Source: a virus. Taken from it: a DNA stretch of 64,000 nt. Shown here in pieces: positions 75-64,000 of the stretch; the first letter of the stretch is position 1; the number at the start of each line of letters is the position of its first letter. The notes under the pieces were generated by a model. That model was not told where the DNA came from and did not search any database. It was given only the letters and a program-made list of their open reading frames with translations. The DNA is taken from IMG/VR virus record IMGVR_UViG_3300042988_001550; one strand, 5' to 3'. The position numbers and the translations under genes are program-made.

Positions 75-1865
75 ATGAATAGCGCGACGCCGCGACTACT
101 GACCAGTCAGACCATGAGAGGTATTCGCCAGCTAGATCGTGAGCGCGGCTTCTCTCTTACGGACGAAGACGCCACATCAATTGCCGGCATGGTCAGCGAC
201 ACGCTGGCGATGGACACTGGCATGCAGGCAACGGCCATGTCCGGACCGACCGGGTCCAATAAAGTGGTAAACCAACTGCTTTCGGCCTTCTCCTCGCTTG
301 AGCGGTCTCTACAGGCTAACGCCACTGAGGTGCGCCGACTGAGCCTGGAAGGCCTTAAGATGGGTCTCACCCCAGAACAGATAACCAAGCTGGGAGAGAC
401 TGTCGGGAGAATGACCTTCAACTCCCAGTTCTCTAACGCTCAAGAAGCCACAGTAATGATGGGCTTGCGCCGAGAAGGTATATCAGGATACTACGGAAAC
501 GGTGACCGGTATGCTGTCCTTCAACGTAACCAAGCTGAGGCCATAAAGAATCAGCTACTTAGTCAAGGCAGAGGAACTGAGCTGTTTAGATATGGTGGCG
601 AGAATGCTACAGAAGCTGGGCTGCTCTACCAAGGCAGGATTGCTGCAAGAGGTGAGCAGTGGTTACAGAACAACGCCGGATCATTGGGAGTGCTGGCCGC
701 TCGCGGACAAATGCCTTCCAGCTTCTCGGATCTCGGGAACCAGCTAGGTCAGGTGTACTCTGCCGACCCGTTCGCTATGATCAATATGATGGCGGACCCA
801 GAGGCCAGACTAGATGCCGTCACTAATGCTGAAATCGCCTCATACCAGTTTGGTAAGATGGCTGGCAAGCAGATGCCGCAGCACGCCAGAGCAATAGCTA
901 TCCAATCAATTGCTAGACAAAATGGCGTCTCCATACCGGAGGCTGCTGAGATCTACAGACGATACCAGGCCCGAGAAGGTAGCCTAGCACTCATGTCAAA
1001 CAACATGGGCGTATCCGTAGATTCAATGCTGTTCACTGCTGCTAAGTACGATAGAGCAGGGTTGGCTCTCCCGGCGATCAGTTCTTCTGGATTAGCAAAA
1101 GCTGTTCAGAGCGGTAGCCTAGTCGACATGGTGATGGCGTATGATTCAGCCGATATCGGCGGCATTGGCGCCAAGATGATCAAATCTCGTACATCTTCTC
1201 TGCTCTCAGTCAAAGAACTTCAAGATCTCACGCCAACAGAACTGGTTAAGTACCTAGAGAAAGAGGTCAACGCTGGGAAGATATCCGTCGAGCAAGCTAA
1301 AGAACTAATACCGTCACTTCAAGTAAGCGATGTAGACGGAATGACTAGACTGTCGATTGATACCGTCGGGTTTAACTTATCAGAGCAGGCCCGCATCTCG
1401 TCTGAATACGTCGCTGCTGGCCGAGGCGGTTGGATAGGCGCGGTCATCGACGGCATGAACGAGAAAGCAAGTTCCGCATTTAACGCGCTTCACTGGTCCG
1501 TTGGTGATAGCGGACCTATCGGAAGCAAAATTGCTGGGTGGTCTGCTATAACGGGTGACGGTGCCCTGAGGGATAAGACACTTCTTAGAAAGAGTGTCGA
1601 GGGACTAACCGACGATACAGAGGAGCAGCGCCGAATAATGGATAGCATCGTTTCAATCCTCAATCAGGATGCCGGTGCTCCAGTATCTATAGAAGATCTG
1701 AACGGTGTCGGCGCTCTGGATAGTCGGGCTACCAAGGACGAGTTAATCAAGACAAACGTCTTCATCGACGCGTACAGAGCGATGAACAAGGTTAACAACC
1801 CTCCTCCGACTAGGGTGTACATCGCCGGTATTGATGAGACAGTCGCCACTGAGCTTCGAAGATGA
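75..1865 (+). CDS. hypothetical protein, 596 aa, possibly virion structural
   Basis: Long uninterrupted ORF at the head of a co-directional block with translationally coupled neighbours. No motif I recognise. Confidence 0.6.
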   Translation: MNSATPRLLTSQTMRGIRQLDRERGFSLTDEDATSIAGMVSDTLAMDTGMQATAMSGPTGSNKVVNQLLSAFSSLERSLQANATEVRRLSLEGLKMGLTPEQITKLGETVGRMTFNSQFSNAQEATVMMGLRREGISGYYGNGDRYAVLQRNQAEAIKNQLLSQGRGTELFRYGGENATEAGLLYQGRIAARGEQWLQNNAGSLGVLAARGQMPSSFSDLGNQLGQVYSADPFAMINMMADPEARLDAVTNAEIASYQFGKMAGKQMPQHARAIAIQSIARQNGVSIPEAAEIYRRYQAREGSLALMSNNMGVSVDSMLFTAAKYDRAGLALPAISSSGLAKAVQSGSLVDMVMAYDSADIGGIGAKMIKSRTSSLLSVKELQDLTPTELVKYLEKEVNAGKISVEQAKELIPSLQVSDVDGMTRLSIDTVGFNLSEQARISSEYVAAGRGGWIGAVIDGMNEKASSAFNALHWSVGDSGPIGSKIAGWSAITGDGALRDKTLLRKSVEGLTDDTEEQRRIMDSIVSILNQDAGAPVSIEDLNGVGALDSRATKDELIKTNVFIDAYRAMNKVNNPPPTRVYIAGIDETVATELRR

Positions 1866-40800: not shown

Positions 40801-43800
40801 AATGGTATTGCAGAGACGCTGGGATCTGAGCTAACAGAAGGTTCGCCTGAGCTAAGTGTTGCAGGTGATCGAGTAGCAGATGAGTTCTACACTGGAACCA
40901 GTTATCTTGGTGCGGATTACAGAACGCAGTCTTCCACAAACACGCTGCTCTACGATCCCGCCTCGTTCACTGTGGGACCGGCAGCATTCGCCCTTACTAA
41001 CGAACCCGACCTAGTTCCTAAGGACTCGCAGTACTACCTGACAGCTTCCAGAAACAGCATGATTGATGCTGGATCTGCCTGGGCAACTCTATACTCAGGT
41101 CAGCACGGTCTGGAAGGATTACTCCTCAAATCGACTCTAGTCACTGGGGTAGCCTCTTATGAGGTGTACCCCGTGTTCGGGTACCGCCCCAACGGGTTTG
41201 CTATCGAGTTCAACGGACAGCGCCGCCTGAACGTACCGTGGGTCTATCTAGCTGACGACTTCACGTTCCGCACATGGATGACGGTTCCCAGCGGCTCAAT
41301 TGGCGCTGGAGAAAGCCCGCAACTTCTAGCTCTTGGAAGCACAGGATTCCGTATCGGTCTTGGGTATGTGTCTGCATCGACATATGAAGTGGCGATCTAC
41401 CCGAGCCCGTCGCAGAGAATTGTTGTTGCTGAGTTCTCACCAGACACTGAGACATTCCTTTCAGTGACCTATCGCGAAGATGACAGTCAGTTTGAGACGA
41501 TCATCGCTGGTGGTAGGAACGGAAGCGGCACTACTTCTACGGATGCCGGCGTCACCGCGTCGTTCACTGGAACGCTGTTCCTTGGTGCTGGAAATACTGA
41601 TCCGATTCAAGACTCTGGTATCACCGCCACACTCGACGAGACAGTTCTGCTAGGCAGAGCAGCGTCTCCTGAGGAAGTTGCGTCGTGGTACTCTACCCGA
41701 TATTGGAGCGGTCCGCTGGGCGTCAGCGCTAACGGCTCTCCGCTATCCGAGCTGGGCGCGCAAATCGTCCTTCACTTCGATAAGGAAGACGCCCTTAGCA
41801 CCACGGTGTTCGATTACTCTGGAGAAGGTAATAACCTCTCGAAAGAGTCTGACGATGTTGATGACCTGGACAGCGACTGGTTCGTTTCTGGAATCATCGA
41901 CACGCCGCTGCCGTCTGAGAAAGACTACTTCCAGCTCGATCGTCGCGGCTACTACATCACGGATGGTAGAAGAGTAACCATTCCTGTCCTCGACGAGGAT
42001 GGTGTTCCGACTACGGTGGAATACACCGCCCGTTCTGGTGAAATCGCATACACCGCTCCCAATGTCGCTTACTACTTCACAGGGAGTAGCTGGCTCAAGG
42101 TAGATGCTTTCCCGTCCACCAGCTCGTCAGCCGTCAGCGTTAACCGCTGGACCGGACCTTATCAAGGGTTCTTTGAGAACGGGTACATTGACCCCAACAA
42201 CCAGGTTCGTTCTAGCGTCATACGGTTTGATGCAACACTCGGAACTGATCCCGCGTTCAAGTTCTCAGCTAAAAACAATGCCGCTATCAGCTCGATCAAG
42301 ATCGGCGGTACCGAGATCCTCGAAGTAGACACGAAAGCCGACATCGTCCAGCAACGTTGGGAAGTCGGTAACTCTTTCGTTCTTGCGGAAGCTGGTGCAG
42401 ATAACCAATCACCGAGAGAACAGTCGCTCTCCAGATACGTGTCGTCTACCTTCACCACAACTGGTGGAGTGGTTAGATCTTATCCAGCGTTCTCGCAGCT
42501 ATACACAGAGGTAAGCCCACCGCTAGAAGCGTCAGGCGACCTCTTCACGAAGCGGGTGAAGCTCGGCGTTGTAAACAACAATCACATTCTAGAGATAGAA
42601 TCATCGCTACAGCCGTATGCCTCGCTAAACAACGCTTACGTCGGCTGGGTCTATCAGCTGAGCCTATCTGATGCGCTGACCGAGGCGTTCTCTTTCCAGG
42701 TAGGGACTCAAGGTGCTGGTTACGGCCAGCCGATCTATCTTGGTAAGGCTGAGGAATCGGATAATCAGATCGAGACCACCTTTAAGGGCGGGGTCATTCT
42801 GACGAGTGTAGACAGAACGCTGGCAATCGGTATCTACCACCACGGACCGAGCAGACCGAACTACCGTATCGCCACTGATATCGAGTATCTGAGTACCCCG
42901 AACAGGGTTCTGCTGTCGTCTACGGAATACATCAGAAACTCTGGCGGCGTGGCCGGAGAGATGAGCAAGAAGCGCTATATCTGCGCCGGTAACTTTGTCG
43001 AAGTGGTATCGGCATTCGCGGAGCTGTATGCGCACCTGGAAGGACTTCCGGCTCCGACCTTCTCCTTCCCGGCGATAGCAATGCAGGCGGCTATTACCTC
43101 GCCGCTTAACCAGAACATCCTACTGAACCAGACAGTTGATTTTAACGTTCGCGCCATCAGTGCCTACGGAACGATCGACGCGCTGTACGCGGAGGATGTG
43201 ACAGCGACGGTTACCGACATTACAACCGGAACAGCTACGGACTACGTGGAGACGTTCGTTAACGGCGTGGCCGACTTCTCGGCTATACCGATGACGCAGA
43301 ACGGCTCTAAGTCAGTGTTCCTCACCAGCGGTTCGCTGCAGCCGGCTACTCTTTCACTAGATGTGTGGTGGCCTAAGCCTATCATCACTAGTATCACGCC
43401 CACTACAAGTGTTACCGGTACAGCGGACACTACCGTTCGGATCTTTGGCTCGCAGTTCTACTCTCCTCACGTAGCACAATGGCGGGCACCTGGATCAAAT
43501 ACATGGGTTGACCAAACAACCACATACGTCAGTCCTGGAGAGGTGCAGTTCTCTCTGCTGACCAGCATGAAGACGGTCGGTCGTCACGTGATTCGTGTAT
43601 CGACGCCGAGACTGCTGGGCGCTATATCTAACTCGGTGTTCCTACAGGTAACTGCGTCCGCGCCGGTATGGTCTCCGCACTACCTGTCGATCGACACCTA
43701 TCCGTCGACAACACTAATCAATTCCAGTAATCAGTACGCTGTGTCTCTAAGACACAGCCCGTCTGGTAACCTGGCCACAATCAACAGCGGTCGCGTAACA

Positions 43801-46800
43801 CTGACTGCTCAGCCGACTGGCTCGTTTACTGGAACCATGAGTGCGTGGGCATCGCCGGTTAACGGTGTCGCTCTGATTAACGGCTCAGTCAACAAGGCAG
43901 GTATCTACGACCTCCGCGCGGTCCACTCGCCACTGTCCGGTGGAGCAGCTAGAACGGACGTAGAGTATGCTGTACTTACTGTACAGAACCCGGACCCGGT
44001 TCTTAGCCGAGTGTCTCCGCCGTGGTTCTCACCTGAAGCGGCGTCTTTTGACGAGTTCCGGCTATTCGGCGCGAACTTTATCCAGAACGACAGTGTTGTA
44101 GAGTTCTGCCTTACTTCGCCGAACCACCCGAGCTTCTCTGGTTGGACAACCAGAACGACGGTATTTGATACCAGCTCTCAGATAATCGGTTATCTCACGA
44201 CCGGTGACATTGCATACGACTCGACAGAGAGATACAGATATGCGAGAGTGTCTACACGATACTCTGTGTCTGGCCTACCTTCAGCGTCAGTAAGCATTCT
44301 CGTGTCCCCCACCGCCGGAGTTCCGCCGGTCCCGACAGTATACAGCCCGTTCTTCCTAGGTGAAGTCGTCGAAGTCGGGTCGCTCACGTACAACGATCAG
44401 TTCGTTAACGAGACGGTCGACGTTCTAGTTCCTGTACTACACTCACTCATTCCGCTAGTATCGGCGTCAACAGCAACCGGATTGGTTAGAGTGGTGGCTT
44501 CCCCAGAGCTTCCTGAGTACACTGGCTCAGGCTCGGATAGCGCTGTTCCGCAAGTCGGCAACCAGATCGCCTTCCTATCTCCTCAGATATCGTCGTACGG
44601 TAGATATCGTCTATCCGCGACATACTCCCCCGGCGTCGGTGAGACAGCGGTTGTCGGTTCAGCCAGTGATTACTTCAACGTCTATCTAAGACCCGCCACG
44701 ATTAGCCGCGTGTCCCCGGTCATAACGAGCCCGCTCGGAACGCAGACGATCACGATCACTGGCGCAGGCTTCAACGTATCGAACAAGGTTTACCTGACGA
44801 ACGCCACCGCTAGCACGACTGTAACAGCTAGCCCGTCCTTCACGTCGGCTCAGAGCATTTCGTTCCAGCTATCCCCAGGAAACTACACAGGACAGCAGGA
44901 TCTTCTGCAGATCCAGGTAGGTACGCCGACTTGGAGCTACGCACTATCAAACAGTAGTTACCTAACACTGTATCCGACACCTAGCACCTACACGGTGTCT
45001 CTAAACCCAGACGTAAACAATCCGCCGCCTATCCTGACACAGACGATCGTTGTCGGAAACACGCTACCGACGATCGACGCACATGTCTTCGATAACGCCG
45101 GACAGCCTGCAACGTCTGTAACTGGCTTAGTGTCCCTCGCCATCACCAAGACCACAGGCGGTGTGGCTTACAGCGGAGCAGATTCGCCGGTCAACGGCTA
45201 CGCCTCCTTCTCTGGTATCACCGCTCCGGCGGCAGGTATCTACAACATCTCGGCTGAGTTCTCTCCGACCGGCGGAACTCCTGTAACAGCAGACGAGATC
45301 CAGTTCTACTCGCTAAACCCCGTCGGATACGCTACAAGCGTAAGCCCATCCACATTCGCGGCCAACGGTGTTCCGAGAACGATTAAGGTGTACGGCCAGA
45401 ACTTCCTTTCTGGAAGCACCGCTGTCCTGGTTAACGGAAGCGAGTCGGCTGCGTTTGTGCAGACAGTACACAGCCCGAAGGCGCTCACAGCAACACTAAG
45501 TACGTTCGCTTCTAACAGCGTCGGTACTCATCAGATCTCTATCAAGACGCAGTTTGCTGCTCCTGGCGGGCAGCCAGCTTATAGTGGTGTTTCTGTTCCT
45601 CTAACCATCACAGCTAACCCGTCGGCTCCAGCCGCTGGATCTGAGGAGAACCTGCCTGCTACCATCATCGTCTCTCCTCTAGGATATGCGAGAGTACGTT
45701 CACCTTCCGGACCAATCACGCCGATCTGGACACCTGTAGCTGTTCCAGGACAGGATCGCGGTAGCGATAGCCTGTGGCAGGCGTGCATCAATCGCGTTGG
45801 CCAGTACAACACGGCCAATCCTCCCGGTACTATCCAACCTACAGCGACCAGCCCCGGCGCTGCGGACGTGGTTGAAGTCACAGCCGGTATGTACTCTCAC
45901 GTCAAGTTCTACACCGGGAATGCAAGCGGTCCCCACGAGACAACAAACGCACAGGCTAGAGGACTCAGCCTAAGACAGCCCCTTATCATTCGTGCACGCA
46001 AGACTAACGGTGTTGCCGAGCCTGTAGTTATTCGCCCCTTCTCGTTCATCGACCCAGCAGACACGACATACGCGTGCATAACCTTCCAGGCAACACCAAC
46101 GTACAAGCCTGGCTTCATGCACTTCTACGATATTGGTTTCATGGGACGTCACTACGGTGTCGAGCATGTTCGATCAACGAACATGACCGGCTCGGTGGAC
46201 TACTACTATGAAGATCATCAGTTCCATCGTTGCCGTATCCTCGGCACGTATGACCATCGAACAATAGCGTTGGCGCCGTATAGGGTGACTCAATCAACCC
46301 AAAGTAATGTCCTCACTAATCAGAAGCACTGGAATTACCTAGGTCAGGAACTAATTGCTCCATCAACTAGCCCGTCCAATAGCTTCTTATGGAGAATGGA
46401 TATTCCAGCAGACCAGGTACATCGGGCGCTACATAGAAACCGTTATTGCGTCAGTGTGCCGGTCACCAGTCCGGCAGATCTGAATCCATTGCCCACCTGC
46501 CTAGGGGTTGTAATCGGCGCGGCACCGTCTAGTGAGTTTGTTTACACATCTAGCCAGAGCGTCTCGACTAGCAAGCTAATTCACCTCGGCCTTGATAAGG
46601 GAACCGGCGGCTCACCGCACTATGTTGAGCTGACATTGATGGCAGACGGTGAAAACGGCGGCGCAGGTGTAGCGAATTCCCGGTCAAATGTCTCTGTATG
46701 GAGCGGTTCTTGGCAGCTTCTCACTGTTACAAACGGAGTGGTTCCTGTCGGCACCGTTTACGACAATACTAAGTACCCCTTGACTGGTAGAGTTATTGGC

Positions 46801-49110
46801 GGCACGGCACTCTACCCGAACATCATCTTCCGCAATCCAGGGTACTACCACTTTACCGCTAGATTGCTGAACGGAGCTGGCGTAGAGATTCCGCTACCTA
46901 GTCCTGCCAAGAACATCTATGTTCAGGCAACCACACCGGGTATCTCTCAAAAAGAGACGTACATTGATAACAACTTCGTTGCAGTAAACCCCAACAACGC
47001 GGCTATTACATACGCTAAGACGTCTCTACCAAAACTAAAGGTAGTGAATAATCTCACAAGCATCTTCACCTTGCCTGTGAACGCTCTCTGTAACTACAAT
47101 CTGCTTCTAGCAGAGCAGCAGCCGGTTCAGGCTCCGATGATCACCGGTACGCTCGACTATACGATGGATTTGACCAGCTATAACGCTGGTTGGAGATGGG
47201 CGGACTCCTTCGGAACGCTCCTGTCCGGTAATCCAAGAGTATTGACCGGACAGATGATCAATGGTTTCGGTAACGTCTACTCGTCGCCGTCGCCGTCTGT
47301 AGCTGTCTATGGTAGACAAGGTCTGCGCTTAAAGTACACCGGTACGTCGACCACTTTCCTAAGTAACGCTGTAGCCGTCGTTGTCACTAAGCGGTCGGTA
47401 ACTCCTGCAGAAACAACACTAACAGTACCCACAAGCAACACACCGCCGCTAAAATACACGTTGGAATTTGTTGCTGGCGGATCAAGCACGACATACCAGA
47501 ACACTTCCGCGTCTGGTGCGTGGTGGCACTCAGTCAACGGTGGATACTCTGGATCGACTAACCTCGGCAGAGGTCGTGTCTTCTGTGCCAGCTGGCCAGG
47601 TAGCCCGAACCACCCGAACTACGATCCTGACACAACCGGCGTATTCTATCCCCATCCAGACGACTGCCCTTATCTGACGTACCCAGAAGGGCGCTCGATG
47701 AAACAGGGTAACCAGGTTTACACTGGCCAGGATTACCTGTGGGATGGTGGTTTCGTTGGCCACATCGCCGAAGAGCACGGGTTCTACTTCCACAACAACC
47801 GTAACGTGACAGTTAGAAATACACTGATCAAGTACACCGGTCGTACTGGAATCCAGAGTCTCAACTGGTGGCAAGATAACAAGCCAAGTGATACTGTCGG
47901 GGACCTTAACCACCCGAATAACCGAGAGAACGTGTCGCAGTTCGGCTACTCTCTGGTGTTCGAGAAGAACACGTTGAAGGATTGTGGGATTACCACACCG
48001 ACACGTCAGCTCACGGTAGCTGACTACGCGGGCAGTGTATACATCCGTAACAACAAGATGTTGTTAGGATTCAACGGCAAGCTGCGCCACTGGGAATCGA
48101 TCAATGCTGGCGCAATCGTCGTGTACGATGGTAGAGCCTTCGTACAGGCATTAGGCCTGCCTAATGATCACTGGAACATCTATCCAGATCACTTCATGGT
48201 CGATCAGTTCGATAACCCTGCGGTTGACTGGCAACACATTAAATTGGCCAATCTAGAGTACACACCAATAGGGTCGAGAGACTACTATCCTGGTGGAGCT
48301 GTGAACCCTTACATAGGATTGAGCCCGTCGCACCCGTACTACTACCTACGCAGACTGTTTGAAAACTATCCCAGACTCGGGTTTGCTTCAGGACAGCAGT
48401 ATCAGGTCGTGCAGAACGGTCTGGTAAACTGGACACCCAACCACCCGTATTACAACCGGGCGTACGGTCACCCTAGATTCTCTGCCGCGCCGTTCACTAA
48501 GTCGATCACCTTAACAAAGCCCCCGCCCAGTGGAACCGGTCCAAGCGTCAGCGTGACGTTAGGATCTCCGACAGTAGGGTTCTATGGTGGTACTCAAAAG
48601 GTTGGTGCCGTCTACGTAAGTGACAACATCATCTGGGGAAACAGCTGGATCTCCGGCGCTAGACCCCTAGCAACCGCACTATCAGGAGACCCGTACTTCA
48701 GCGAGTTTGTTCATGCTGACTGGGTTTCTCCTGGTATACGCCCACAAGGCATGATCGCCCTGGATACGACGGGTGGATATACTGGAACAGTGTTGCAGGA
48801 AGGAACAGGATTCCAGCACCCGCTGGTGGCCTTCGGAGGAATGCGTAACCTCATCCTTAACCACAACTCGATCAAGCCTGGCAACACAGTAGTCGGTAAG
48901 ATTGACCTGAATCCGAAACAGGCCACTGGCAACGACCTGTACTATCCTCCCATCCTATCAGTAACCGGCTCGCACAACATCTTTGCGACTGCTCCTGGTA
49001 AGTCCGCCGGATTCCGTTACTACTTCACGGACACGACAAATCCGATTGTAGCTGCCCTACGCAGCCAGCTTTTGAGCAGCGTCTCTCCCAGCCCTAACCT
49101 GTATTTCTGA
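37816..49110 (+). CDS. giant tail-fiber/adhesin-like protein, 3764 aa, with LamG-like, repeated IPT/TIG-like and beta-helix-like segments
   Basis: One 11.3 kb ORF. A LamG-like segment near nt 41260..41600 (TGTLFLGAGNT). At least four IPT/TIG-like units between nt 43380 and 45470 (PIITSITPTTSVTGTADTTVRIFGSQF, LSRVSPPWFSPEAASFDEFRLFGANF, ATISRVSPVITSPLGTQTITITGAGF, VSPSTFAANGVPRTIKVYGQNF). A beta-helix-like NNRNVTVRNTLIKYTG segment near nt 47560..48900. Confidence 0.8.
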   Translation: MSTNKFDPTPLFDALPSFWKDYYKDKDVLSTVYEALLRIQEIDYNRLFTVDDSKTLSSVPVLTRYPVVYDQLNDWETTGQKHAHTKISVAFDPTLVTPFDATTQYYRIRFPDTIFKYDSQLYLDGRAIPASFYTKVFEPYYSGEFTDGETVGTTVYLHAQRLAQLFAKPLSTEDYELITEDPDQFDNYGNVSEDPEAFADYGNLGWSAIEAVTTATMYAFKSVLPLKAVTDGSTSSFELDLSPQTLSTDESTVVVESVDVTGRVAVSYDSAYTTVTPVGSFSWQTGQTFKVTWQDGTIQQVSAATGLPIYLTKLDPIASVQLLTNFQIYPSVTTVDINGVSVGNNQLYPGTIVRVVDSVGTQSAVITDATNRVTFERPIDTNTAKVFFHGIDLLSVDLTETALDFNTPPNKSVTLRIDGVISNDHQHVTETFDIEVITRNIVLANTPATGAMTGNESEFLPCRVFKDGQLLLAGTDYSLVGSILIFEEDLLPPCKVSVYYEISGEVAHTHYHQVFQNLASNNRLTIDREVSADDTFELYYDSLLNTHQSQLDLVGGRSITLDNVFPENITIVFHGIQRGWAYRHVIADRMDARYGYRGHVKSIGFIQDGLITASATLSSQDGDIAVVEENGDTVLYSNTKVIDAWMFDVDVDEQLISNVWGALVDNVEASTDDQAVRITSLLAAARSPAFVANMENFGSIVLGSRFLEEDGVSLGIRTDDNGDRVVSIRPTDTQSDNFDVQLIDGAEVRITDGSVLPRLFAVNKLLSVIDKDLSSVPWLAFMAESLSSDFRFAKRLDAKTSKKLTSDNGQFDQVTGVLTDYSINFYEEEVRVGDQIRLEFAIFDFTLPDNPLEERDPVVANVLEVINPNQIRIKSPEIVDIAGFGENSYGSGPFGGGIYTPSLRSYTVWTRVTRKLDSFYKLDTALASAQAFVSGEDVQLTNEELAKLLRHHVFVLKLNWDRMVSAEQLATLQQLIRTLKPAKTTALVYTELEDGNGIAETLGSELTEGSPELSVAGDRVADEFYTGTSYLGADYRTQSSTNTLLYDPASFTVGPAAFALTNEPDLVPKDSQYYLTASRNSMIDAGSAWATLYSGQHGLEGLLLKSTLVTGVASYEVYPVFGYRPNGFAIEFNGQRRLNVPWVYLADDFTFRTWMTVPSGSIGAGESPQLLALGSTGFRIGLGYVSASTYEVAIYPSPSQRIVVAEFSPDTETFLSVTYREDDSQFETIIAGGRNGSGTTSTDAGVTASFTGTLFLGAGNTDPIQDSGITATLDETVLLGRAASPEEVASWYSTRYWSGPLGVSANGSPLSELGAQIVLHFDKEDALSTTVFDYSGEGNNLSKESDDVDDLDSDWFVSGIIDTPLPSEKDYFQLDRRGYYITDGRRVTIPVLDEDGVPTTVEYTARSGEIAYTAPNVAYYFTGSSWLKVDAFPSTSSSAVSVNRWTGPYQGFFENGYIDPNNQVRSSVIRFDATLGTDPAFKFSAKNNAAISSIKIGGTEILEVDTKADIVQQRWEVGNSFVLAEAGADNQSPREQSLSRYVSSTFTTTGGVVRSYPAFSQLYTEVSPPLEASGDLFTKRVKLGVVNNNHILEIESSLQPYASLNNAYVGWVYQLSLSDALTEAFSFQVGTQGAGYGQPIYLGKAEESDNQIETTFKGGVILTSVDRTLAIGIYHHGPSRPNYRIATDIEYLSTPNRVLLSSTEYIRNSGGVAGEMSKKRYICAGNFVEVVSAFAELYAHLEGLPAPTFSFPAIAMQAAITSPLNQNILLNQTVDFNVRAISAYGTIDALYAEDVTATVTDITTGTATDYVETFVNGVADFSAIPMTQNGSKSVFLTSGSLQPATLSLDVWWPKPIITSITPTTSVTGTADTTVRIFGSQFYSPHVAQWRAPGSNTWVDQTTTYVSPGEVQFSLLTSMKTVGRHVIRVSTPRLLGAISNSVFLQVTASAPVWSPHYLSIDTYPSTTLINSSNQYAVSLRHSPSGNLATINSGRVTLTAQPTGSFTGTMSAWASPVNGVALINGSVNKAGIYDLRAVHSPLSGGAARTDVEYAVLTVQNPDPVLSRVSPPWFSPEAASFDEFRLFGANFIQNDSVVEFCLTSPNHPSFSGWTTRTTVFDTSSQIIGYLTTGDIAYDSTERYRYARVSTRYSVSGLPSASVSILVSPTAGVPPVPTVYSPFFLGEVVEVGSLTYNDQFVNETVDVLVPVLHSLIPLVSASTATGLVRVVASPELPEYTGSGSDSAVPQVGNQIAFLSPQISSYGRYRLSATYSPGVGETAVVGSASDYFNVYLRPATISRVSPVITSPLGTQTITITGAGFNVSNKVYLTNATASTTVTASPSFTSAQSISFQLSPGNYTGQQDLLQIQVGTPTWSYALSNSSYLTLYPTPSTYTVSLNPDVNNPPPILTQTIVVGNTLPTIDAHVFDNAGQPATSVTGLVSLAITKTTGGVAYSGADSPVNGYASFSGITAPAAGIYNISAEFSPTGGTPVTADEIQFYSLNPVGYATSVSPSTFAANGVPRTIKVYGQNFLSGSTAVLVNGSESAAFVQTVHSPKALTATLSTFASNSVGTHQISIKTQFAAPGGQPAYSGVSVPLTITANPSAPAAGSEENLPATIIVSPLGYARVRSPSGPITPIWTPVAVPGQDRGSDSLWQACINRVGQYNTANPPGTIQPTATSPGAADVVEVTAGMYSHVKFYTGNASGPHETTNAQARGLSLRQPLIIRARKTNGVAEPVVIRPFSFIDPADTTYACITFQATPTYKPGFMHFYDIGFMGRHYGVEHVRSTNMTGSVDYYYEDHQFHRCRILGTYDHRTIALAPYRVTQSTQSNVLTNQKHWNYLGQELIAPSTSPSNSFLWRMDIPADQVHRALHRNRYCVSVPVTSPADLNPLPTCLGVVIGAAPSSEFVYTSSQSVSTSKLIHLGLDKGTGGSPHYVELTLMADGENGGAGVANSRSNVSVWSGSWQLLTVTNGVVPVGTVYDNTKYPLTGRVIGGTALYPNIIFRNPGYYHFTARLLNGAGVEIPLPSPAKNIYVQATTPGISQKETYIDNNFVAVNPNNAAITYAKTSLPKLKVVNNLTSIFTLPVNALCNYNLLLAEQQPVQAPMITGTLDYTMDLTSYNAGWRWADSFGTLLSGNPRVLTGQMINGFGNVYSSPSPSVAVYGRQGLRLKYTGTSTTFLSNAVAVVVTKRSVTPAETTLTVPTSNTPPLKYTLEFVAGGSSTTYQNTSASGAWWHSVNGGYSGSTNLGRGRVFCASWPGSPNHPNYDPDTTGVFYPHPDDCPYLTYPEGRSMKQGNQVYTGQDYLWDGGFVGHIAEEHGFYFHNNRNVTVRNTLIKYTGRTGIQSLNWWQDNKPSDTVGDLNHPNNRENVSQFGYSLVFEKNTLKDCGITTPTRQLTVADYAGSVYIRNNKMLLGFNGKLRHWESINAGAIVVYDGRAFVQALGLPNDHWNIYPDHFMVDQFDNPAVDWQHIKLANLEYTPIGSRDYYPGGAVNPYIGLSPSHPYYYLRRLFENYPRLGFASGQQYQVVQNGLVNWTPNHPYYNRAYGHPRFSAAPFTKSITLTKPPPSGTGPSVSVTLGSPTVGFYGGTQKVGAVYVSDNIIWGNSWISGARPLATALSGDPYFSEFVHADWVSPGIRPQGMIALDTTGGYTGTVLQEGTGFQHPLVAFGGMRNLILNHNSIKPGNTVVGKIDLNPKQATGNDLYYPPILSVTGSHNIFATAPGKSAGFRYYFTDTTNPIVAALRSQLLSSVSPSPNLYF

Positions 49111-57570: not shown

Positions 57571-58375
57571 TAACCCCTTCATTACCTGCCCACTTTGAAC
57601 TTTCGTTCGACTACATTACACTAGTCTAGTGGGATGGACTTTCTCTTCACCCTCGTCTTTACGTTAGGGTGCGCCGTGTAAAGTCTCTACACTTGCCCGG
57701 TTCTTTTAGGAACCTGCTAGCTCGGGATTGCCATTTTAAAGGTTTCCCCGACTTAGCGGCGTCCACTTTATAGGTTTCCCTAGAAAGGTCCGTAATCATG
57801 ACTTACTGCTGCGCTGAGTGTCAAACAACGTTCTCTCGAAAGGACAAAGCACGTTCTGTAAACGCATTCTGTTCTCGATCTTGTGCCGCCAGCTATAACA
57901 ACAGGAAGAAACCTAAGAGGGCGCGAAGCCGTCGGGATTCTAGTTGTGTTAGTTGCGGAAAAAGTACCCATAACCGTAGATTCTGCGATTTGGTGTGCTT
58001 CCACAGACTTAGGGCCGATACAAAGATCGCCAACTGGTTGTCAGGCCACGAGACGCGCGTCACCTCTCATCGAAGAGACGCTATCCGCTCCTGGCTGTTG
58101 AAGGACCAGCTAGAGAAGTGTGCCTTGTGCGCCCAATCAGGAAATTGGAACGGCAAGCCACTGCTTTTTGTTTTGGACCATATCAATGGAGACCACACCG
58201 ATAACAGCAGAACCAATCTACGCCTTATCTGTCATAACTGTGACTCACAGTTACCTACGTACAAAGGCAGAAATCGCGGTTTCGGGCGATACATCAGAAG
58301 ACAACGATACGCAGACGGTAAATCGTTCTAACAAATGAAGAGCTCTGCCAATTGAGCTACATCGGCAATTGAAAG

Positions 58376-60060: not shown

Positions 60061-60173
60061 TGGTCGGCCCGGAGGGACTCGAACCCCCAACCCTCCGCAT
60101 ATCAGACGGCGCCCAGTTGTTACACCAGGGGCGGATCATAAATCCACTGCTCTACCATTGAGACTACGGGCCG
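60061..60173 (-). tRNA. tRNA-like gene with anticodon UAU (Ile-type) and a ~41-nt insertion between the anticodon stem and T-arm
   Basis: CGGCCCG/CGGGCCG, GTGGA/TCCGC with loop TTTATGA, GGGGG-TTCGAGT-CCCTC, A73, and CCA. It is 113 nt long. Confidence 0.4.
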
Positions 60174-60202
60174 GATTGTAGAGAAGTGAGGACAAAAGAA
60201 GT

Positions 60203-60257
60203 CCTTAAAGGAGAGATGTTTTTGATCCAATGAGAGTGGATCAATTTCTTATGACAC
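60203..60257 (+). promoter_or_regulatory. Composite element GATCCAAT-N6-GGATCA-ATTTCTTATGACA upstream (minus-strand sense) of the tRNA-like gene
   Basis: Same composite architecture as the block at 26135..26173. Confidence 0.45.
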
Positions 60258-60259
60258 AA

Positions 60260-60646
60260 TTATAGCTTAGTCTTGGTCTTCGTGGTCTGAAAAGTTGTGG
60301 TTTTTTCGACCAGCGTTTCAATTGGATAGCCTTTGCGCATCCAGTCAGCGGAGTTAATCGCCTGCAACCAGTCCGCTACCGTCGGGATGAATCCGCAATC
60401 TTCTTTGACGTGCTGCTCCCCAATCAACCGGGTAGGGATGACCTTACCATCACTGTTGGTGATCGTAGGACCAAAAGCAGCCTCAAGCATGAAGATGCCA
60501 GCCGAATGGTGCAGCATCGCTCGGTGACGGAAATCGGCGATATGTGCTTTTGACTGATCGAACCACAGATGTAGATCGTAATAGTCTTCCCACTTACCGC
60601 CAAAAAGAACCGCAGAGGATCTTGCGTGATCGTAGCAGGTACCCAT
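60260..60646 (-). CDS. hypothetical protein, 128 aa
   Basis: ATGA-coupled to the upstream ORF. Confidence 0.5.
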   Translation of the reverse strand: MGTCYDHARSSAVLFGGKWEDYYDLHLWFDQSKAHIADFRHRAMLHHSAGIFMLEAAFGPTITNSDGKVIPTRLIGEQHVKEDCGFIPTVADWLQAINSADWMRKGYPIETLVEKTTTFQTTKTKTKL

Positions 60647-61038
60647 TACTCACCTATCTTCAGGTGGCTAGACGACGTATCATATGTGATGGTGGCTTGG
60701 TTAACTGTAAGGACGGCGTCCCCGTTCCTAAGGTTGATGACAACCGAACCGTTCCCTCCCTCATTATTCCACCAATCTGGACCACCGTGGGCGACTTCCA
60801 TGGCGGCGTCCTTCAAGCTTCTATAAGCGTCACGTGCTGATTGAGCTGATACCTGTTTTTCAACAAGGATAGCTGTTAACCAGTCTGGGACGATCCTTTC
60901 AAAGTTCTGAGCCGGATGATGCGGGTGCGTTACATATGAGTCGTCAATATCACCGCTATCTCCACTCCCACTGAAAATGACCTCCATCGACTCAAAGCCT
61001 AGTTTCCTCAGAAGTCTTCTTGCTCTTTTTGTTTCCAC
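60646..61038 (-). CDS. hypothetical protein, 130 aa, acidic
   Basis: First ORF downstream (on the minus strand) of the long non-coding stretch. Confidence 0.5.
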   Translation of the reverse strand: METKRARRLLRKLGFESMEVIFSGSGDSGDIDDSYVTHPHHPAQNFERIVPDWLTAILVEKQVSAQSARDAYRSLKDAAMEVAHGGPDWWNNEGGNGSVVINLRNGDAVLTVNQATITYDTSSSHLKIGE

Positions 61039-61376
61039 GTTTTCCTTAGTAAAAGAATGGGGTAGCTACTCCCCATCCAGTGTTGACTTGTATTCCCAGT
61101 CGGTCACGTTTCACCGAACGGTCAACAGCAGAGCTGGTCGTCTTTGTTTTGTGTCGTCAGCCCTAGGTGTGAGACCGCTACAGTCACCTAGAACTTATCG
61201 TGCCGTGAGCTCACAGCACGAGACCATGGATTTCTCCCGCGCTAGTACTTAAGGTCGGTTTAGCGTCCACTAGCAGGACGTGTTAGTGCCCCCTACAGAT
61301 TGCTCTGTAGGGGGCGACCGTTAACCCTTTAAGCAGTTCAGCTGCTCATAGATCTTATGCCACAAATCCGCTGGAT

Positions 61377-62963
61377 TTAGTCCTTGGCGAAATTGCTGAT
61401 GAGAGCCGGAGTCTCGGTATCGTACCCGACGATGTCCAGCTGGTGCGGGTCTTGAGGATCCGCGATGGTGAAGCCGGTAGCCGTCATGCCGACGACGATG
61501 GCCTTGGCGTTGGGGCGGTTGCGTTCCTTGCGGAATCGATTCAGCGCCTGGTACGGCTGCACGCCGCCGTTCGTCTCATTGTCAGTCATGATGACGAAGC
61601 AATCCACGTCACGCTTCTGGGAGGTCGCGTACGAGTAGGCCGCCGAGCAGTCGGTTGATCCGAAGTTGTTCATGACAACCTTGTGCATAGCAGTCGCCAG
61701 GGTATCGTTTGCATGGATACCCAGGTCCTTGATCGTGCTGGCGAAGCCAACGATCTCGTGGTAGGGCTCACGTCGAGCCAAAACCATTGCCAGGCACGCG
61801 GTACCCATCGCCGGGGTGAACCCAGGGAAGACGGAGCCCGCCGAGCCGTACCCACCACCAGCCATCGACCCCGAAACGTCAAGCGCCAGCAAGAAGTTCT
61901 TGTTGGACGGTTCGACGTTGTTGAAGGCGTGGTAGAACAGCGCTTCCGTGACATCGGTGATGGTGCTCACCGGGGTCCAAGACAGGCTGCCCTTGATGCC
62001 ATGACCCTGACGGTACGTGTAGTAGGCGGCCAGCGCCTGCATCGGATGGATACGCGACTTTTTGATCGCTTCCTTATCCGACAGCTTCTGCTGGACCAAC
62101 TTCGTAGCCGAGCTGAGAGGCTTCAGCAAGCCGTTCGCCGTCATGCGCGCCAGGTTGCGGGTTAGCGCATTCAGCGGCATGTTCGGCAGCAAGGCTTCCC
62201 AGATCTCCGGATTCCCCAGCTGCTCCGTCGGAATCATTTCCCAGGTGATCGACTTGTTGCGTCGAATCACAGCGAGGATACCATTCTTGTCCGCCTTGCT
62301 GATTTCCTCCAGATCCGCGACGATCTGAGGAATACCTTCAGCAATCACATTCTTGCACGCCCACTGGAACAGTGCCTGCTGTTCCTTGAGAAGCGGCTTC
62401 GGGTGAGCCATGCGCAGCACGTCACGATGCGTCCACCCGTTGCGGTTGCGGTACTTGGCCATCTGATAGGCGAGGTCGTCGCCCTTCTTGTTGATGTACC
62501 AATCACCAACCGTCGTGCAGAGCATACGCCCCCAGCCGCGCATGTTCTGGACCTCTTCCGTGAACTGGAACAGGTGGGTACCCGTCCGGATCACCTGATA
62601 GAAGACGGCCTTGGCAGCCACCTTCGTCGCGAGGTCCTTGCTGCTCATCGCCATTGCCAAAGCAAAAATTGCGGGGTCTTGCTTCGGCGCACGCCCACCG
62701 ACGCTGATGTCGCGGATGACACCAACCGTCTTGGGACCGTCAGCATTGAGGCAGCGGGTCACCACCTCAGCATTGTCCACAGTCAGCTTGCGCTCGGACA
62801 CGTAGTACGTGCCGCCGCTCGACCCGAGAATCAGAAATCGTTCCAACCGCTTCCAGTCGTCAGTCTGGAACACATACCCACCGGTGTTGTTCAGTACCTG
62901 GTCTGAACGTGTCTTCTCGTGCACCGGTGCAGGAGTGTTCAGGATCTTGCCGTAGTTCTTCAC
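61377..62963 (-). CDS. rsr: Ro60/Rsr ortholog (TROVE domain plus C-terminal vWA/MIDAS)
   Basis: N-terminus NNTGGYVFQTDDWKRLERFLILGSSGGTYYVSERKLTVDNAEVV matches Ro60. The C-terminus has LALDVSGSM...TDNETNG (MIDAS). GTG start follows an AGGAGGG ribosome-binding site. Confidence 0.8.
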   Translation of the reverse strand: MKNYGKILNTPAPVHEKTRSDQVLNNTGGYVFQTDDWKRLERFLILGSSGGTYYVSERKLTVDNAEVVTRCLNADGPKTVGVIRDISVGGRAPKQDPAIFALAMAMSSKDLATKVAAKAVFYQVIRTGTHLFQFTEEVQNMRGWGRMLCTTVGDWYINKKGDDLAYQMAKYRNRNGWTHRDVLRMAHPKPLLKEQQALFQWACKNVIAEGIPQIVADLEEISKADKNGILAVIRRNKSITWEMIPTEQLGNPEIWEALLPNMPLNALTRNLARMTANGLLKPLSSATKLVQQKLSDKEAIKKSRIHPMQALAAYYTYRQGHGIKGSLSWTPVSTITDVTEALFYHAFNNVEPSNKNFLLALDVSGSMAGGGYGSAGSVFPGFTPAMGTACLAMVLARREPYHEIVGFASTIKDLGIHANDTLATAMHKVVMNNFGSTDCSAAYSYATSQKRDVDCFVIMTDNETNGGVQPYQALNRFRKERNRPNAKAIVVGMTATGFTIADPQDPHQLDIVGYDTETPALISNFAKD

Positions 62964-63007
62964 ATGCCCTCCTGTTGTTGGAAAAAAAAGAGCTAGAGCT
63001 CGAAAGT

Positions 63008-63016
63008 CTTATGACG
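63008..63016 (+). promoter_or_regulatory. CTTATGACG variant motif upstream of rsr
   Basis: Minus strand reads GTGGGGTGA-ttaagt-TCACCCCAC, TTTTTTT, AGCTCAAATATATCAGCAAACACGTCATAAGAC, 38 nt, AGGAGGG, GTG 62963. Confidence 0.45.
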
Positions 63017-63293
63017 TGTTTGCTGATATATTTGAGCTAAAAAAAGTGGGGTGAACTTAATCACCCCACAATCCGCCGCATAGACACTACCTAAAGTGCT
63101 CTCCGGGCCTAGTTGTCTTTTAGACGGTGGCCACTTACGAGACGGGACCGTAGTCCAGCAGGTCGTTGTCGTATTGAAGCGATATAGGGGTGAGCAAATT
63201 TGTGTGCGAGGGTGTTTTCTTGACCAGATAACCCTCACACTTCGGCTCACTTTTTCTATTTGTACAAGGCACTGGCGAAGCAAACCAGCTCAG

Positions 63294-63466
63294 CTAATAT
63301 ATCTGCAGAGCTCTTAAAGTTAGTTACCTCCAGTTCGTGACCAAAGGTCACGTGGTAATTTACACCTCCGAAGGAGGTGCACTTTTACCGTCGGTAAAGA
63401 GTGTTACGAGTGACCGAAGGTCAGAACTGGGGTAACTAACTTTAAGAGCTCTGCAGATATATTAGC
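63294..63466. repeat. 173-nt inverted-repeat element: 36-bp perfect stem plus a 6-bp extension, enclosing four short hairpins
   Basis: 63294..63329 (GCTAATATATCTGCAGAGCTCTTAAAGTTAGTTACC) is exactly complementary to 63431..63466. CAGTTC pairs with GAACTG after a 2/1-nt bulge. The inner loop contains GTGACCaaaGGTCAC, CACCTCCgaaGGAGGTG, TACCGtcGGTA and TGACCgaaGGTCA. Confidence 0.85.
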
Positions 63467-64000
63467 AGGGTGGTCCTTTGCGCATACATGTAGCTGTTCG
63501 GAAACGGGGGCGTATCGTCCGCGTTATGCCTCTGACTCATGCGCAGTAAATCAGAACATCTGCCGTTGTTTCGAATGATGCCCCAGCTAGGGCAGTGAAT
63601 GGGATCGGCACTTAGTGGAACGATGCAAGCGATTACCAGAGGTAGGTGTAGAGCCGGTCGCGTGCTGAAGCGTAGTTTACGGAGCTTCAGTAGCGCCGGC
63701 TCGTAACCTACCGGGGGTAATCGCAGAGCACCATTGTAGTACTGGTAGTTAGGTGAGCCTCAGCAACGTATCGTTGCCGTATGTCTATTCAGGCAGTACT
63801 GGTCCTAAATAAAGATCTGCCGATTTGTTCGATGGAAAAAGATGTGGCGGTGTTTCTGCGATCTTGCGTGAATCTGCCGCAGGATCTCCCTGCGTACCAT
63901 GCCGCACACACTGGGGCGCCAATGTCGTGGAAGACTTACCGGGGCCACCGAGAGGACAGCAACTGGCGCTAGCTGGCTGATGTCCTGTAGGTCCTGATCA

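What the first reader, a model, noticed from the sequence alone, without database searches (positions are those of the whole stretch)
61040..61360. Second 320-nt ORF-less, highly structured interval on the 3' side of rsr
Between the rsr stop (61377) and the next credible minus-strand start (61038) there are about 320 nt with no supportable ORF; the + strand 60977..61252 ORF is hydrophobic, Ser-rich and overlaps hairpins. The interval contains a 10-bp perfect hairpin CCCCCTACAG-agcaat-CTGTAGGGGG (61288..61313), a near-perfect 22-nt palindrome CGTGCCGTGAGCTCACAGCACG (61200..61222), GGGGTAGCTACTCCCC (61060..61078), and a CTTATGCCA motif variant beside an AAATCC-gct-GGATTT hairpin (61354..61380). 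Phage intergenic spacers elsewhere in this window are under 60 nt, so this is either a small structured RNA or a cis-acting DNA site. Y RNAs can lie on either side of rsr.
Basis: seen in the sequence. Interest (0 to 1): 0.6.

Follow-up and report, generated by a model that had tools for sequence, protein, structure and literature searches.

The report
Pistol-like ribozyme RNA beside phage rsr
The gene-free stretch after the phage's Ro60 (rsr) gene most likely encodes a separate, roughly 300-base structured RNA whose conserved centre has the fold and catalytic bases of a pistol self-cleaving ribozyme; it is not a Y RNA, and self-cleavage is untested.

Summary
Window 61039-61376 has no supportable ORF and folds much better than shuffles, best on the minus (gene) strand.

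The Y-RNA reading is not supported. The interval lacks a CGAA motif, a tRNA-like arm and a terminal 5'-3' stem, and gives no YrlA hit. Weak YrlA hits lie upstream of rsr in two relatives.

The interval looks like its own transcription unit:
- It starts at a phage-specific promoter-like motif (TGNCATAAGA; 9 copies, all minus strand, 0.37 expected).
- It ends at an intrinsic-terminator hairpin (61078-61055).
- The unit recurs in four other metagenomic phage contigs. In two of them a new promoter follows, so it is not just a leader for the next gene.

The invariant 59-nt core (61280-61222) has pistol-ribozyme architecture:
- It has P1, a 6-bp pseudoknot, P2 and P3.
- It has a 7-nt A-rich linker, UUAAG, the G40-C41-G42 triplet and a 2-nt junction.
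- On five sequences, 97.7% of cells pair and 8 of 18 pairs carry compensatory changes.

Rfam's Pistol model hits only the most distant homolog, below threshold (27.7 vs 34.5 bits). It misses the window copy, which has a 3-bp P3 and an A-U rather than G-U junction.

The predicted cut is between 61227 and 61226. This is a new variant of a known kind.

The parts
61346..61365 (-). Promoter-like motif TTGTGGCATAAGAtctATGA (core TGGCATAAGA at 61362..61353). The inferred transcription start is near 61346.
   Evidence: TGNCATAAGA occurs 9 times, all on the minus strand, against 0.37 expected. Copies sit after terminators and before RBS/ATG or RNA genes. The same motif heads the homologous unit in L001, L003 and L004. 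Promoter function is inferred, not shown.
61332..61346 (-). 5' hairpin AGCAG-CUGAA-CUGCU, immediately after the inferred start.
   Evidence: Every homolog has a hairpin of unrelated sequence at the same position.
61288..61315 (-).
   Evidence: The helix is kept in 4 sequences, with two pair types at 8 of 11 positions. One G-U pair in L004 fits only this strand.
61222..61280 (-). Pistol-like ribozyme core. P1 is 61280-61277 with 61267-61264. The pseudoknot is 61274-61269 with 61246-61241. The linker CUAAACC is 61263-61257. P2 is 61256-61253 with 61225-61222. UUAAG is 61252-61248. G40-C41-G42 is 61240-61238. P3 (GGA-GAAA-UCC) is 61237-61228.
   Evidence: Covariation: 97.7% of cells paired, 8 of 18 pairs with changes on both sides, 0 of 500 shuffles as good, slid controls 24-42%. 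The Rfam Pistol alignment of homolog L097 maps each element.
61226..61227 (-). Two-nucleotide P3-P2 junction A-U. The predicted scissile bond lies between A61227 and U61226.
   Evidence: Position follows from the Rfam Pistol alignment of L097 and the pistol cleavage site described in PMC4604425. Cleavage itself is not tested.
61199..61220 (-).
   Evidence: L097 also has a hairpin followed by AUAAGUU at this position.
61079..61198 (-). 3' domain of unknown function (AUAAGUU, a CUAGGUG/CACCUAG helix, an A-rich ACAAAACAAAG stretch).
   Evidence: L001, L004, L096 and L003 share a different but mutually conserved 3' domain, which includes a hairpin with a covarying stem and the loop ACCACCA. Alignment between the window and those sequences is unreliable here.
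61045..61078 (-). Intrinsic-terminator-like hairpin GGAUGGGG-AGUAGCUA-CCCCAUUC followed by UUUU.
   Evidence: Terminator scan hit. A terminator hairpin plus U-tract ends the unit in L001, L004, L096 and L003, with covariation.
61364..61378 (-). Hairpin AAAUCC-AGC-GGAUUU overlapping the rsr stop codon. It has no U-tract, so it is at best a weak terminator for rsr.

Best explanation
The interval is a stand-alone, non-coding transcription unit on the gene (minus) strand. It runs about 300 nt, from a phage-specific promoter-like motif (61362-61353) to an intrinsic terminator (61078-61045).

Its strongly conserved centre (61280-61222) folds as a pistol-class self-cleaving ribozyme. The loop of the P1 hairpin forms a 6-bp pseudoknot with the strand between P2 and P3. 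A 7-nt linker carrying three A's follows P1. The unpaired UUAAG and G-C-G segments would form the active site. A 2-nt junction links P3 to P2.

The inferred mechanism is that of known pistols. The G at 61240 (G40) would act as general base, and the 2'-OH of A61227 would attack its 3' phosphate. The transcript would be cut between 61227 and 61226, giving two products:
- a 5' piece of about 120 nt (two hairpins plus the ribozyme) ending in a 2',3'-cyclic phosphate;
- a 3' piece of about 175-180 nt (hairpin, 3' domain, terminator) beginning with a 5'-OH.

In the window, L001 and L096 any terminator read-through also carries the DUF6878-DUF6915 mRNA.

Shown here: the anatomy, the conservation, the covariation and the absence of coding. 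Inferred: promoter use, catalysis, and what the products do.
For: 1. Non-coding. There is no ORF conserved among homologs on either strand, and the conserved 'CAUG' is CAUA in L004.
2. Strand. Fold z is -5.65 on the minus strand against -3.63 on the plus strand. G-U pairs fit only the minus strand. The promoter-like motif and terminator are both on the minus strand.
3. Independent unit. In L003 the unit has its own promoter and terminator, is followed by another promoter, and is separated from rsr by two small ORFs. In L004 it is followed directly by the next promoter, with no DUF6878/6915 genes.
4. Conservation. A 59-nt core is 85% identical across phages whose Rsr proteins are only 55-72% identical. 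A model built from four sequences finds a fifth, L097, which was not in the training set, at 54.4 bits (E 4.6e-13).
5. Pistol identity. Rfam Pistol RF02679 aligns end to end (model positions 1-68) with the L097 copy at 27.7 bits, E 0.0011. P1, the linker UUAAACA (consensus AUAAAuA), P2, UUAAG, GCG, P3, GU and P2' all fall in register.
6. Covariation. All four helices covary in the five sequences: 97.7% of cells paired, 8 of 18 pairs changed on both sides, 0 of 500 shuffles as good, slid controls 24-42%. P2 reads GACC/GGUC, GGUC/GACC, GAGC/GCUC and GCUC/GAGC in four of them.
7. Catalytic residues. Those named in the literature are invariant here: the three loop-1 adenines, purine-32, the G33-C41 pair, G40, G42, and U29/U+1 (PMC6154101, PMC8495972).
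8. Junction length. The junction is 2 nt, the feature described as strictly conserved in PMC4604425.
9. Context. Pistols are reported to be phage-associated (PMC4604425).
Against: - Rfam's Pistol model gives no hit at E<=10 on the window, L001 or L003 copies, even on 75-111-nt slices. The L097 hit is below the gathering score (27.7 vs 34.5).
- In four of five sequences P3 is only 2-3 bp plus a tetraloop.
- In those four the nucleotide 5' of the predicted cut is A, not the usual G.
- There is one extra nucleotide (U) between G33 and the pseudoknot strand compared with the Rfam consensus.
- L004 has a C-A mismatch in the innermost P2 pair.
- Only five distinct sequences exist, four of them related, so covariation counts rest on few events.
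- The alignment used for counting was fitted to the model.
- No cleavage or expression data are available. Promoter function of the motif is inferred from position only.
Confidence: 0.6

Rival explanations
1. It is a structured non-coding RNA that keeps a pistol-like fold but no longer cleaves, or never did. The pseudoknot core would serve as a scaffold or protein-binding module of a roughly 300-nt phage RNA, possibly one that works with Rsr.
For: The Rfam Pistol model does not detect the window, L001 or L003 copies. P3 is minimal and the nucleotide 5' of the junction is A, not G. The flanking hairpins and the 3' domain are also conserved, which a bare ribozyme would not need. The unit lies next to rsr in three of the four loci whose upstream side is known, and within 450 nt in the fourth.
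Against: Every residue assigned a catalytic or active-site role in pistols is invariant across five diverged sequences, while neighbouring positions vary. The 2-nt junction and the U+1/U29 positions are kept. Linkage to rsr may be simple synteny among related phages. No copy was found in 80 other rsr-bearing viral contigs.
Confidence: 0.2
2. It is a cis-acting 5' leader that regulates the downstream DUF6878-DUF6915 genes, for example through ligand- or protein-controlled read-through of the terminator at 61078-61045.
For: In the window, L001 and L096 the terminator is followed within about 15-20 nt by an RBS and the DUF6878 start. No promoter motif lies between them, so those genes must be expressed by read-through.
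Against: In L004 the same RNA is followed by a new promoter and an RNA gene. In L003 it is followed by a new promoter and an unrelated membrane protein. The DUF6878-DUF6915 cassette occurs in another phage without this RNA (R1 search of L093, R2 searches of L093 and L094). No riboswitch family matches at E<=10.
Confidence: 0.1
3. It is a Y RNA (YrlA/YrlB-like) that binds the phage Rsr through a conserved stem and tethers an effector.
For: It is on the same strand as rsr and within 4 kb, as reported Y RNAs are (PMC4201824). It is highly structured.
Against: There is no GNCGAAN0-1G motif in 3 of 4 homologs, and the single match sits in the P3 tetraloop of L003. There is no T-loop motif and no tRNA-like domain. 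No YrlA hit appears at E<=10 or E<=1 in relatives. The RNA ends are locked in their own hairpins rather than in a 5'-3' stem. At about 300 nt it is roughly three times the usual Y RNA size. Weak YrlA hits sit upstream of rsr in L001 and L003 instead.
Confidence: 0.05
4. It is a DNA-level element (origin, packaging or recombination site) made of palindromes.
For: Several inverted repeats are close to perfect at the DNA level.
Against: The plus strand folds less well. G-U pairs in L004, L096 and the window hairpin at 61220-61199 become A-C mismatches on the other strand. A pseudoknot and a helix with distant partners (P2) covary, which duplex DNA has no use for. The unit is bracketed by a promoter-like motif and a terminator.
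Confidence: 0.03

Closest known systems
Pistol self-cleaving ribozyme (Rfam RF02679; Weinberg 2015, Harris 2015 PMC4604425)
   Same: Same connectivity: a P1 hairpin whose loop forms a 6-bp pseudoknot with the P2-P3 left junction, followed by P2 and P3. Also shared are the 7-nt linker with three A's, UUAAG (purine-32, G33), G40-C41-G42, a 2-nt P3-P2 junction with U at +1, and a phage context.
   Different: P3 is 2-3 bp with a tetraloop in four of five sequences, against about 8 bp in the Rfam consensus. The junction is A-U rather than G-U in those four. One extra U lies between G33 and the pseudoknot strand. The Rfam model does not detect the window copy. The ribozyme sits inside a conserved 300-nt RNA with its own promoter and terminator, next to rsr.
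Pseudoknot-containing hammerhead ribozyme (PMC11300833)
   Same: The secondary structure and connectivity are essentially identical to pistol, and therefore to this element.
   Different: The hammerhead core strands (CUGANGA and GAAA, with cleavage after NUH) are absent. The junction strands here are UUAAG and GCG, as in pistol. 'CUGAUG' occurs in L004 only and is not conserved.
Bacterial and phage Y RNAs (YrlA RF02553; Yrl1/Yrl2 of Thermus phage phiLo, PMC12135203)
   Same: A non-coding RNA gene on the rsr strand, within a few hundred nt of rsr.
   Different: It has no CGAA motif, no tRNA-like domain, no terminal stem and no model hit, and it is about three times longer. The Y-RNA-like hits in relatives lie on the other side of rsr.
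H-type pseudoknot riboswitch aptamers (e.g. preQ1-I)
   Same: A hairpin loop pairs with downstream sequence, and an A-rich strand follows the first stem.
   Different: No Rfam riboswitch hit at E<=10. Here the pseudoknot is enclosed by P2 and followed by P3, which those aptamers lack.

Membership tests
Pistol ribozyme | [quoted passage not shown] | tested here: met
   P1 has 4 pairs, 2 of them with changes on both sides, and one column shows all four Watson-Crick pair types. The pseudoknot has 6 pairs, 100% paired, 1 with a double change. The Rfam alignment of L097 places P1 in register.
Pistol ribozyme | P2 helix formed by the segment after the A-rich linker and the segment right after the cleavage junction | tested here: met
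   3 of 4 pairs change on both sides and 95% of cells are paired. L004 has one C-A mismatch.
Pistol ribozyme | P3 hairpin between G42 and the junction | tested here: met
   P3 is present in all five sequences and covaries (GGA/UCC, GCC/GGC, GC/GC). It is only 2-3 bp plus a GAAA or UAAC loop in four of them, and 6-7 bp in L097.
Pistol ribozyme | Loop 1: a linker between P1 and P2 with three conserved adenines | tested here: met
   The linker is 7 nt in all five (CUAAACC, AUAAACC, UAAAACA x2, UUAAACA), against the Rfam consensus AUAAAuA. AAA is invariant. The role of these adenines is from PMC8495972.
Pistol ribozyme | Active-site nucleotides: purine-32, G33-C41 pair, G40, G42 | tested here: met
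   UUAAG ... G-C-G is invariant in all five sequences. Roles are taken from PMC6154101 and PMC8495972.
Pistol ribozyme | Two-nucleotide junction between P3 and P2 (length strictly conserved, G-U modestly conserved) holding the scissile bond | tested here: inconclusive
   The length of 2 nt is kept, and U at +1 is invariant. The identity is A-U in the window, L001, L003 and L004, and G-U in L097. PMC4604425 says the identity varies somewhat. Whether A at -1 is active is not known to me.
Pistol ribozyme | Score at or above the Rfam RF02679 gathering threshold (34.5 bits) | tested here: not met
   Window slice: no hit at E<=10. L001 and L003 slices: none. L097: 27.7 bits.
Pistol ribozyme | Mg2+-dependent site-specific self-cleavage giving a 2',3'-cyclic phosphate and a 5'-OH | not testable with these tools
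   Needs an in vitro transcription and cleavage assay.
Y RNA / YrlA | GNCGAAN0-1G (CGAA) Rsr-binding motif near the 5' end | tested here: not met
   Absent in the window, L001 and L004. The single match in L003 is the P3 tetraloop. The definition is from PMC4201824.
Y RNA / YrlA | tRNA-like domain (T arm, acceptor-like stem, D arm) | tested here: not met
   No T-loop motif. No YrlA or tRNA hit in the interval at E<=10.
Y RNA / YrlA | Stem formed by the 5' and 3' ends of the RNA | tested here: not met
   In all four folds the 5' end is in its own hairpin and the 3' end is in the terminator hairpin. No conserved terminal stem appears in the consensus fold.
Y RNA / YrlA | Encoded within 4 kb of rsr on the same strand | tested here: met
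   Directly 3' of rsr in the window, L001 and L004, and 450 nt away in L003.
Y RNA / YrlA | Binds Rsr/Ro60 | not testable with these tools
   Needs co-purification or a gel-shift assay.
PK-hammerhead ribozyme | Hammerhead core strands CUGANGA and GAAA flanking the pseudoknot | tested here: not met
   The conserved strands are UUAAG and GCG. The definition is from PMC11300833.

The most novel reading that the evidence does not exclude
The whole 300-nt unit is a new class of phage non-coding RNA. In this reading a minimal pistol ribozyme matures a roughly 175-nt 3' RNA with a 5'-OH end, and leaves a hairpin-capped 5' RNA with a 2',3'-cyclic phosphate. One or both products would be ligands or substrates of the adjacent phage Rsr (Ro60). 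That would tie self-cleaving ribozymes to Ro60-type RNA surveillance and to the cyclic-phosphate/5'-OH chemistry of the bacterial rsr-rtcBA operons.
Probability: 0.1. Interest if true: 0.8.

Novelty: new variant of a known kind. Interest (0 to 1): 0.5.

Why it matters
The biological roles of pistol and other small self-cleaving ribozymes in phages are still unknown. Here a candidate sits in a defined setting: its own promoter and terminator, conserved flanking RNA domains, and an 'RNA island' holding rsr, a tRNA-like gene, tmRNA and tRNAs, with Y-RNA-like elements upstream of rsr in the relatives. That gives a concrete system in which to ask what the cleavage is for.

It also shows that the curated Pistol model misses a short-P3, A-U-junction variant. 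Pistol-class ribozymes may therefore be under-counted.

For annotation, it warns against calling every structured RNA next to rsr a Y RNA.

Tried and rejected
- GenBank phages: megablast of 60200-63800 and sensitive blastn of the interval gave no match.
- IMG/VR by single-protein Rsr search: nothing.
- IMG/VR exact patterns from the core: two gave nothing. A third gave L097.
L005, L006, L008 and L009 lie upstream of what looks, from its translation, like a LacI-type regulator gene (not searched); L007 is inside a repetitive stretch.
- The genome scan gave only another copy of that same regulator-upstream sequence (L090). My model scores it 20.6 bits only because the search pattern forced the match.
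- 80 other rsr-bearing IMG/VR loci: no copy by nhmmer or by covariance models R1 and R2. The RNA is therefore confined to a small phage clade and is not a general rsr companion.
- A second Rsr search from L003's protein found no closer relatives.
- Searching with DUF6915 recovered the same phage in two more samples with an identical interval (L091, L092). It also gave a 3' fragment (L096) and an unrelated phage with the cassette but no RNA.
- Small-peptide reading: the 10-27-aa ORFs starting at the conserved CAUG are not conserved, and L004 has CAUA.
- Riboswitch and other Rfam families: none at E<=10.
- A common 3'-domain structure across all homologs could not be derived, because the alignment is unreliable.
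- RNA-repair genes near the locus: Pfam scans of nine neighbouring ORFs found none.
- PHROGs on eight large ORFs identified only a helicase and a baseplate protein. The host remains unknown.

Full report
**1. The observation**

The window's genes around the finding all run on the minus strand:
- rsr at 62963..61377, with TROVE and Ro60-vWA domains (E 7e-41 and 3e-47);
- a DUF6878 gene at 61038..60646;
- a DUF6915 gene at 60646..60260;
- a tRNA-like gene, a tmRNA and a tRNA cluster.

Between the rsr stop and the DUF6878 start lie 338 nt (61039-61376). The + strand 91-aa ORF has no family hit and is not conserved in homologous loci.

As RNA, the minus strand folds at -130.1 kcal/mol against -100.1 +/- 5.3 for shuffles (z -5.65). 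The plus strand gives z -3.63. A crude ORF tiling gives a median spacer of 19 nt. The interval is therefore unusual, although eleven other gaps exceed 150 nt.

**2. Relatives**

Nothing similar is in GenBank phages. Searching with the Rsr protein led to three contigs:
- L001: Rsr 72% identical, with the same gene order and a 363-nt gap at the same place.
- L002: the contig ends just after rsr.
- L003: Rsr 55% identical, on a 123-kb phage contig.

An exact-pattern scan of metagenomes added L004. A DUF6915 search added three more loci. L091 and L092 are the same phage from two further samples, with an identical interval. L096 carries only the 3' half. A relaxed pattern in IMG/VR added L097, from a 130-kb viral contig.

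No copy was found in 80 other rsr-bearing IMG/VR loci by nhmmer or by two covariance models.

**3. A separate transcription unit**

The motif TGNCATAAGA occurs nine times in the window, always on the minus strand, against 0.37 expected. A tenth variant precedes rsr.

Copies follow terminator hairpins and precede an RBS plus start codon, or RNA genes. The same motif heads the homologous unit in L001, L003 and L004. I read it as a phage-specific promoter. This is inferred from position, not shown.

The interval ends with a hairpin plus U-tract that the terminator scan reports (61078-61055). Its counterparts in four homologs covary.

Two contexts argue against a simple leader. In L003 the unit is separated from rsr by two small ORFs and is followed by another promoter and an unrelated gene. 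In L004 it is followed directly by the next promoter, with no DUF6878/6915 genes. The RNA is therefore a module of its own. In the window, L001 and L096 it also lies upstream of DUF6878 with no promoter in between.

No ORF is conserved on either strand.

**4. Not a Y RNA**

Published criteria for bacterial and phage Y RNAs are a GNCGAAN0-1G/CGAA motif, a 5'-3' terminal stem and, for YrlA, a tRNA-like T/D-arm domain (PMC4201824, PMC12135203). None of these holds here:
- The motif occurs in only one of four homologs, inside a tetraloop, and there is no T-loop motif.
- The RNA ends sit in their own hairpins.
- Rfam YrlA gives no hit at E<=10.

Sub-threshold YrlA hits lie upstream of rsr in L001 (36.8 bits) and L003 (37.7 and 30.5 bits). 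L003 also has a hit to a nematode sRNA family that I recall, from memory, to be Y-RNA-related. By synteny, the window's own equivalents would lie at or beyond its end at 64000.

**5. The conserved core is pistol-like**

Alignment of the homologs shows a 59-nt block that is 85% identical, while the flanks diverge. By eye it forms an H-type pseudoknot.

The fifth homolog, L097, was not used to build my model and scores 54.4 bits with it. Rfam's Pistol ribozyme model (RF02679) hits L097 over its full length at 27.7 bits. That is E 0.014 in the 1.7-kb locus and 0.0011 in a 141-nt slice.

That alignment assigns every piece of my pseudoknot to a pistol element:
- my stem 1 is P1;
- my stem 2 is the pseudoknot;
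- the A-rich strand is the 7-nt linker (consensus AUAAAuA);
- the four variable bases after it are P2;
- next come UUAAG, the pseudoknot 3' strand and G-C-G;
- next comes a hairpin, P3;
- next comes a 2-nt junction;
- last comes the P2 partner.

Counted on the model-guided alignment of five sequences, 97.7% of cells pair and 8 of 18 pairs carry changes on both sides. No shuffle out of 500 reaches any of the five measures, and slid controls pair at 24-42%. In four of the five sequences P2 reads GACC/GGUC, GGUC/GACC, GAGC/GCUC and GCUC/GAGC. One P1 column shows all four Watson-Crick pair types.

The residues given catalytic or structural roles in pistols are invariant here. They are the three loop-1 adenines, purine-32, the G33-C41 pair, G40, G42, and the U29/U+1 pair (PMC6154101, PMC8495972).

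The hammerhead core strands are absent. This excludes the pseudoknot-hammerhead, which shares the same secondary structure (PMC11300833).

**6. Where it departs from known pistols**

- Rfam's model gives no hit at E<=10 on the window, L001 or L003 copies, even on 75-111-nt slices.
- The L097 hit is below the gathering score.
- In the four rsr-linked sequences P3 is only 2-3 bp capped by GAAA or UAAC, where the model expects about 8 bp.
- In those four the junction is A-U rather than G-U.
- One extra U separates G33 from the pseudoknot strand.

Harris et al. state that the junction's length is strictly conserved while its identity varies somewhat (PMC4604425). The A-U junction is therefore not disqualifying, but activity is unproven. 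I file this as a variant of the pistol class, not as a confirmed member.

**7. Mechanism proposed**

Transcription would start near 61346 and produce, in order:
- a 5' hairpin (61346-61332);
- an 11-bp hairpin (61315-61288; 8 of 11 positions covary);
- the ribozyme (61280-61222);
- a 9-bp hairpin (61220-61199);
- a 120-nt 3' domain;
- the terminator.

The ribozyme would cut between A61227 and U61226. This gives a 5' piece of about 120 nt with a 2',3'-cyclic phosphate and a 3' piece of about 175-180 nt with a 5'-OH.

The hairpin at the rsr stop has no U-tract. Read-through rsr transcripts could therefore also be trimmed here, leaving rsr mRNA with a structured 3' end. This is speculation.

The 3' domain is conserved within the L001/L004/L096/L003 group. 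It includes a hairpin with a covarying stem and an ACCACCA loop. It partly resembles L097 in the window, where AUAAGUU follows the hairpin. I could not derive a common structure, and its function is unknown.

**8. Verdict**

The interval is a structured RNA gene, not a Y RNA and not a DNA site. Its core is best explained as a divergent pistol-class self-cleaving ribozyme embedded in a larger conserved phage RNA.

My confidence that it self-cleaves as described is about 0.6, and about 0.2 that the fold is retained without catalysis. Pistols near phage genes are expected, so surprise is moderate. The interest lies in three points: the variant form that the curated model misses, the defined transcription unit, and the position beside rsr.

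No paper in the searchable library links pistol ribozymes with Ro60.

Noticed in passing
window 60064-60173 (minus); L001 4360-4459; L003 8940-9041: A tRNA-like gene with a roughly 38-nt insertion in the variable region and an apparent UAU anticodon. Rfam tRNA scores it 44.2 bits, but ARAGORN does not call it. It is conserved in both relatives, just upstream of the tmRNA.
   Followed up: partly
window 63289-63470 (minus), upstream of rsr; L001 about 985-1210: A very long, nearly perfect hairpin of about 180 nt, which gives a spurious plant-microRNA hit. L001 has a hairpin of similar size but different sequence at the same relative position.
   Followed up: no
window 8496, 22847, 26164, 30293, 54781, 57105, 57488, 60247, 61353 and 63007 (all minus): A recurring motif (T)GTGNCATAAGA, often followed about 4 nt later by ATGA. 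It occurs only on the minus strand, 9 times against 0.37 expected. It is probably a phage-specific promoter, although large + strand ORFs in the window carry no copy. The copies at 60247 and 26164 are followed by an ATGATCC...GGATCA hairpin.
   Followed up: partly
L001 287-419; L003 5035-5138, 5200-5258, 5440-5508: Sub-threshold YrlA (Y RNA-like) hits upstream of rsr on the same strand in the relatives, plus in L003 a hit to a nematode sRNA family (ceN72-3_ceN74-2) that I recall, from memory, to be Y-RNA-related. By eye, L001 holds two T-arm/stem/D-arm units. The window's own copies would lie at or beyond position 64000.
   Followed up: partly
window 57617-57809 (minus) and 57798-58331 (plus): A group I intron hit above the Rfam threshold (57.6 bits), next to an ORF with a weak HNH endonuclease match. 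This looks like a homing-endonuclease intron, but the host gene was not identified.
   Followed up: no
window 37816-49110 (plus): A single open reading frame of 3764 codons, next to a baseplate-wedge-like gene. It was not analysed.
   Followed up: no
window 60260-61038; L001 3470-4272; L096; L093 2610-3388: The DUF6878-DUF6915 gene pair is present after the RNA in some relatives and absent in others (L004, L003). It also occurs in an unrelated phage contig without rsr. It behaves as a mobile two-gene cassette.
   Followed up: partly
L097 about 560-1410 (minus strand): In the IMG/VR homolog the pistol-like core is followed by roughly 850 nt without a convincing ORF. This stretch holds several strong hairpins, a weak DUF3800-VI RNA hit (24.3 bits) and a second terminator-like hairpin near 800-855.
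   Followed up: no
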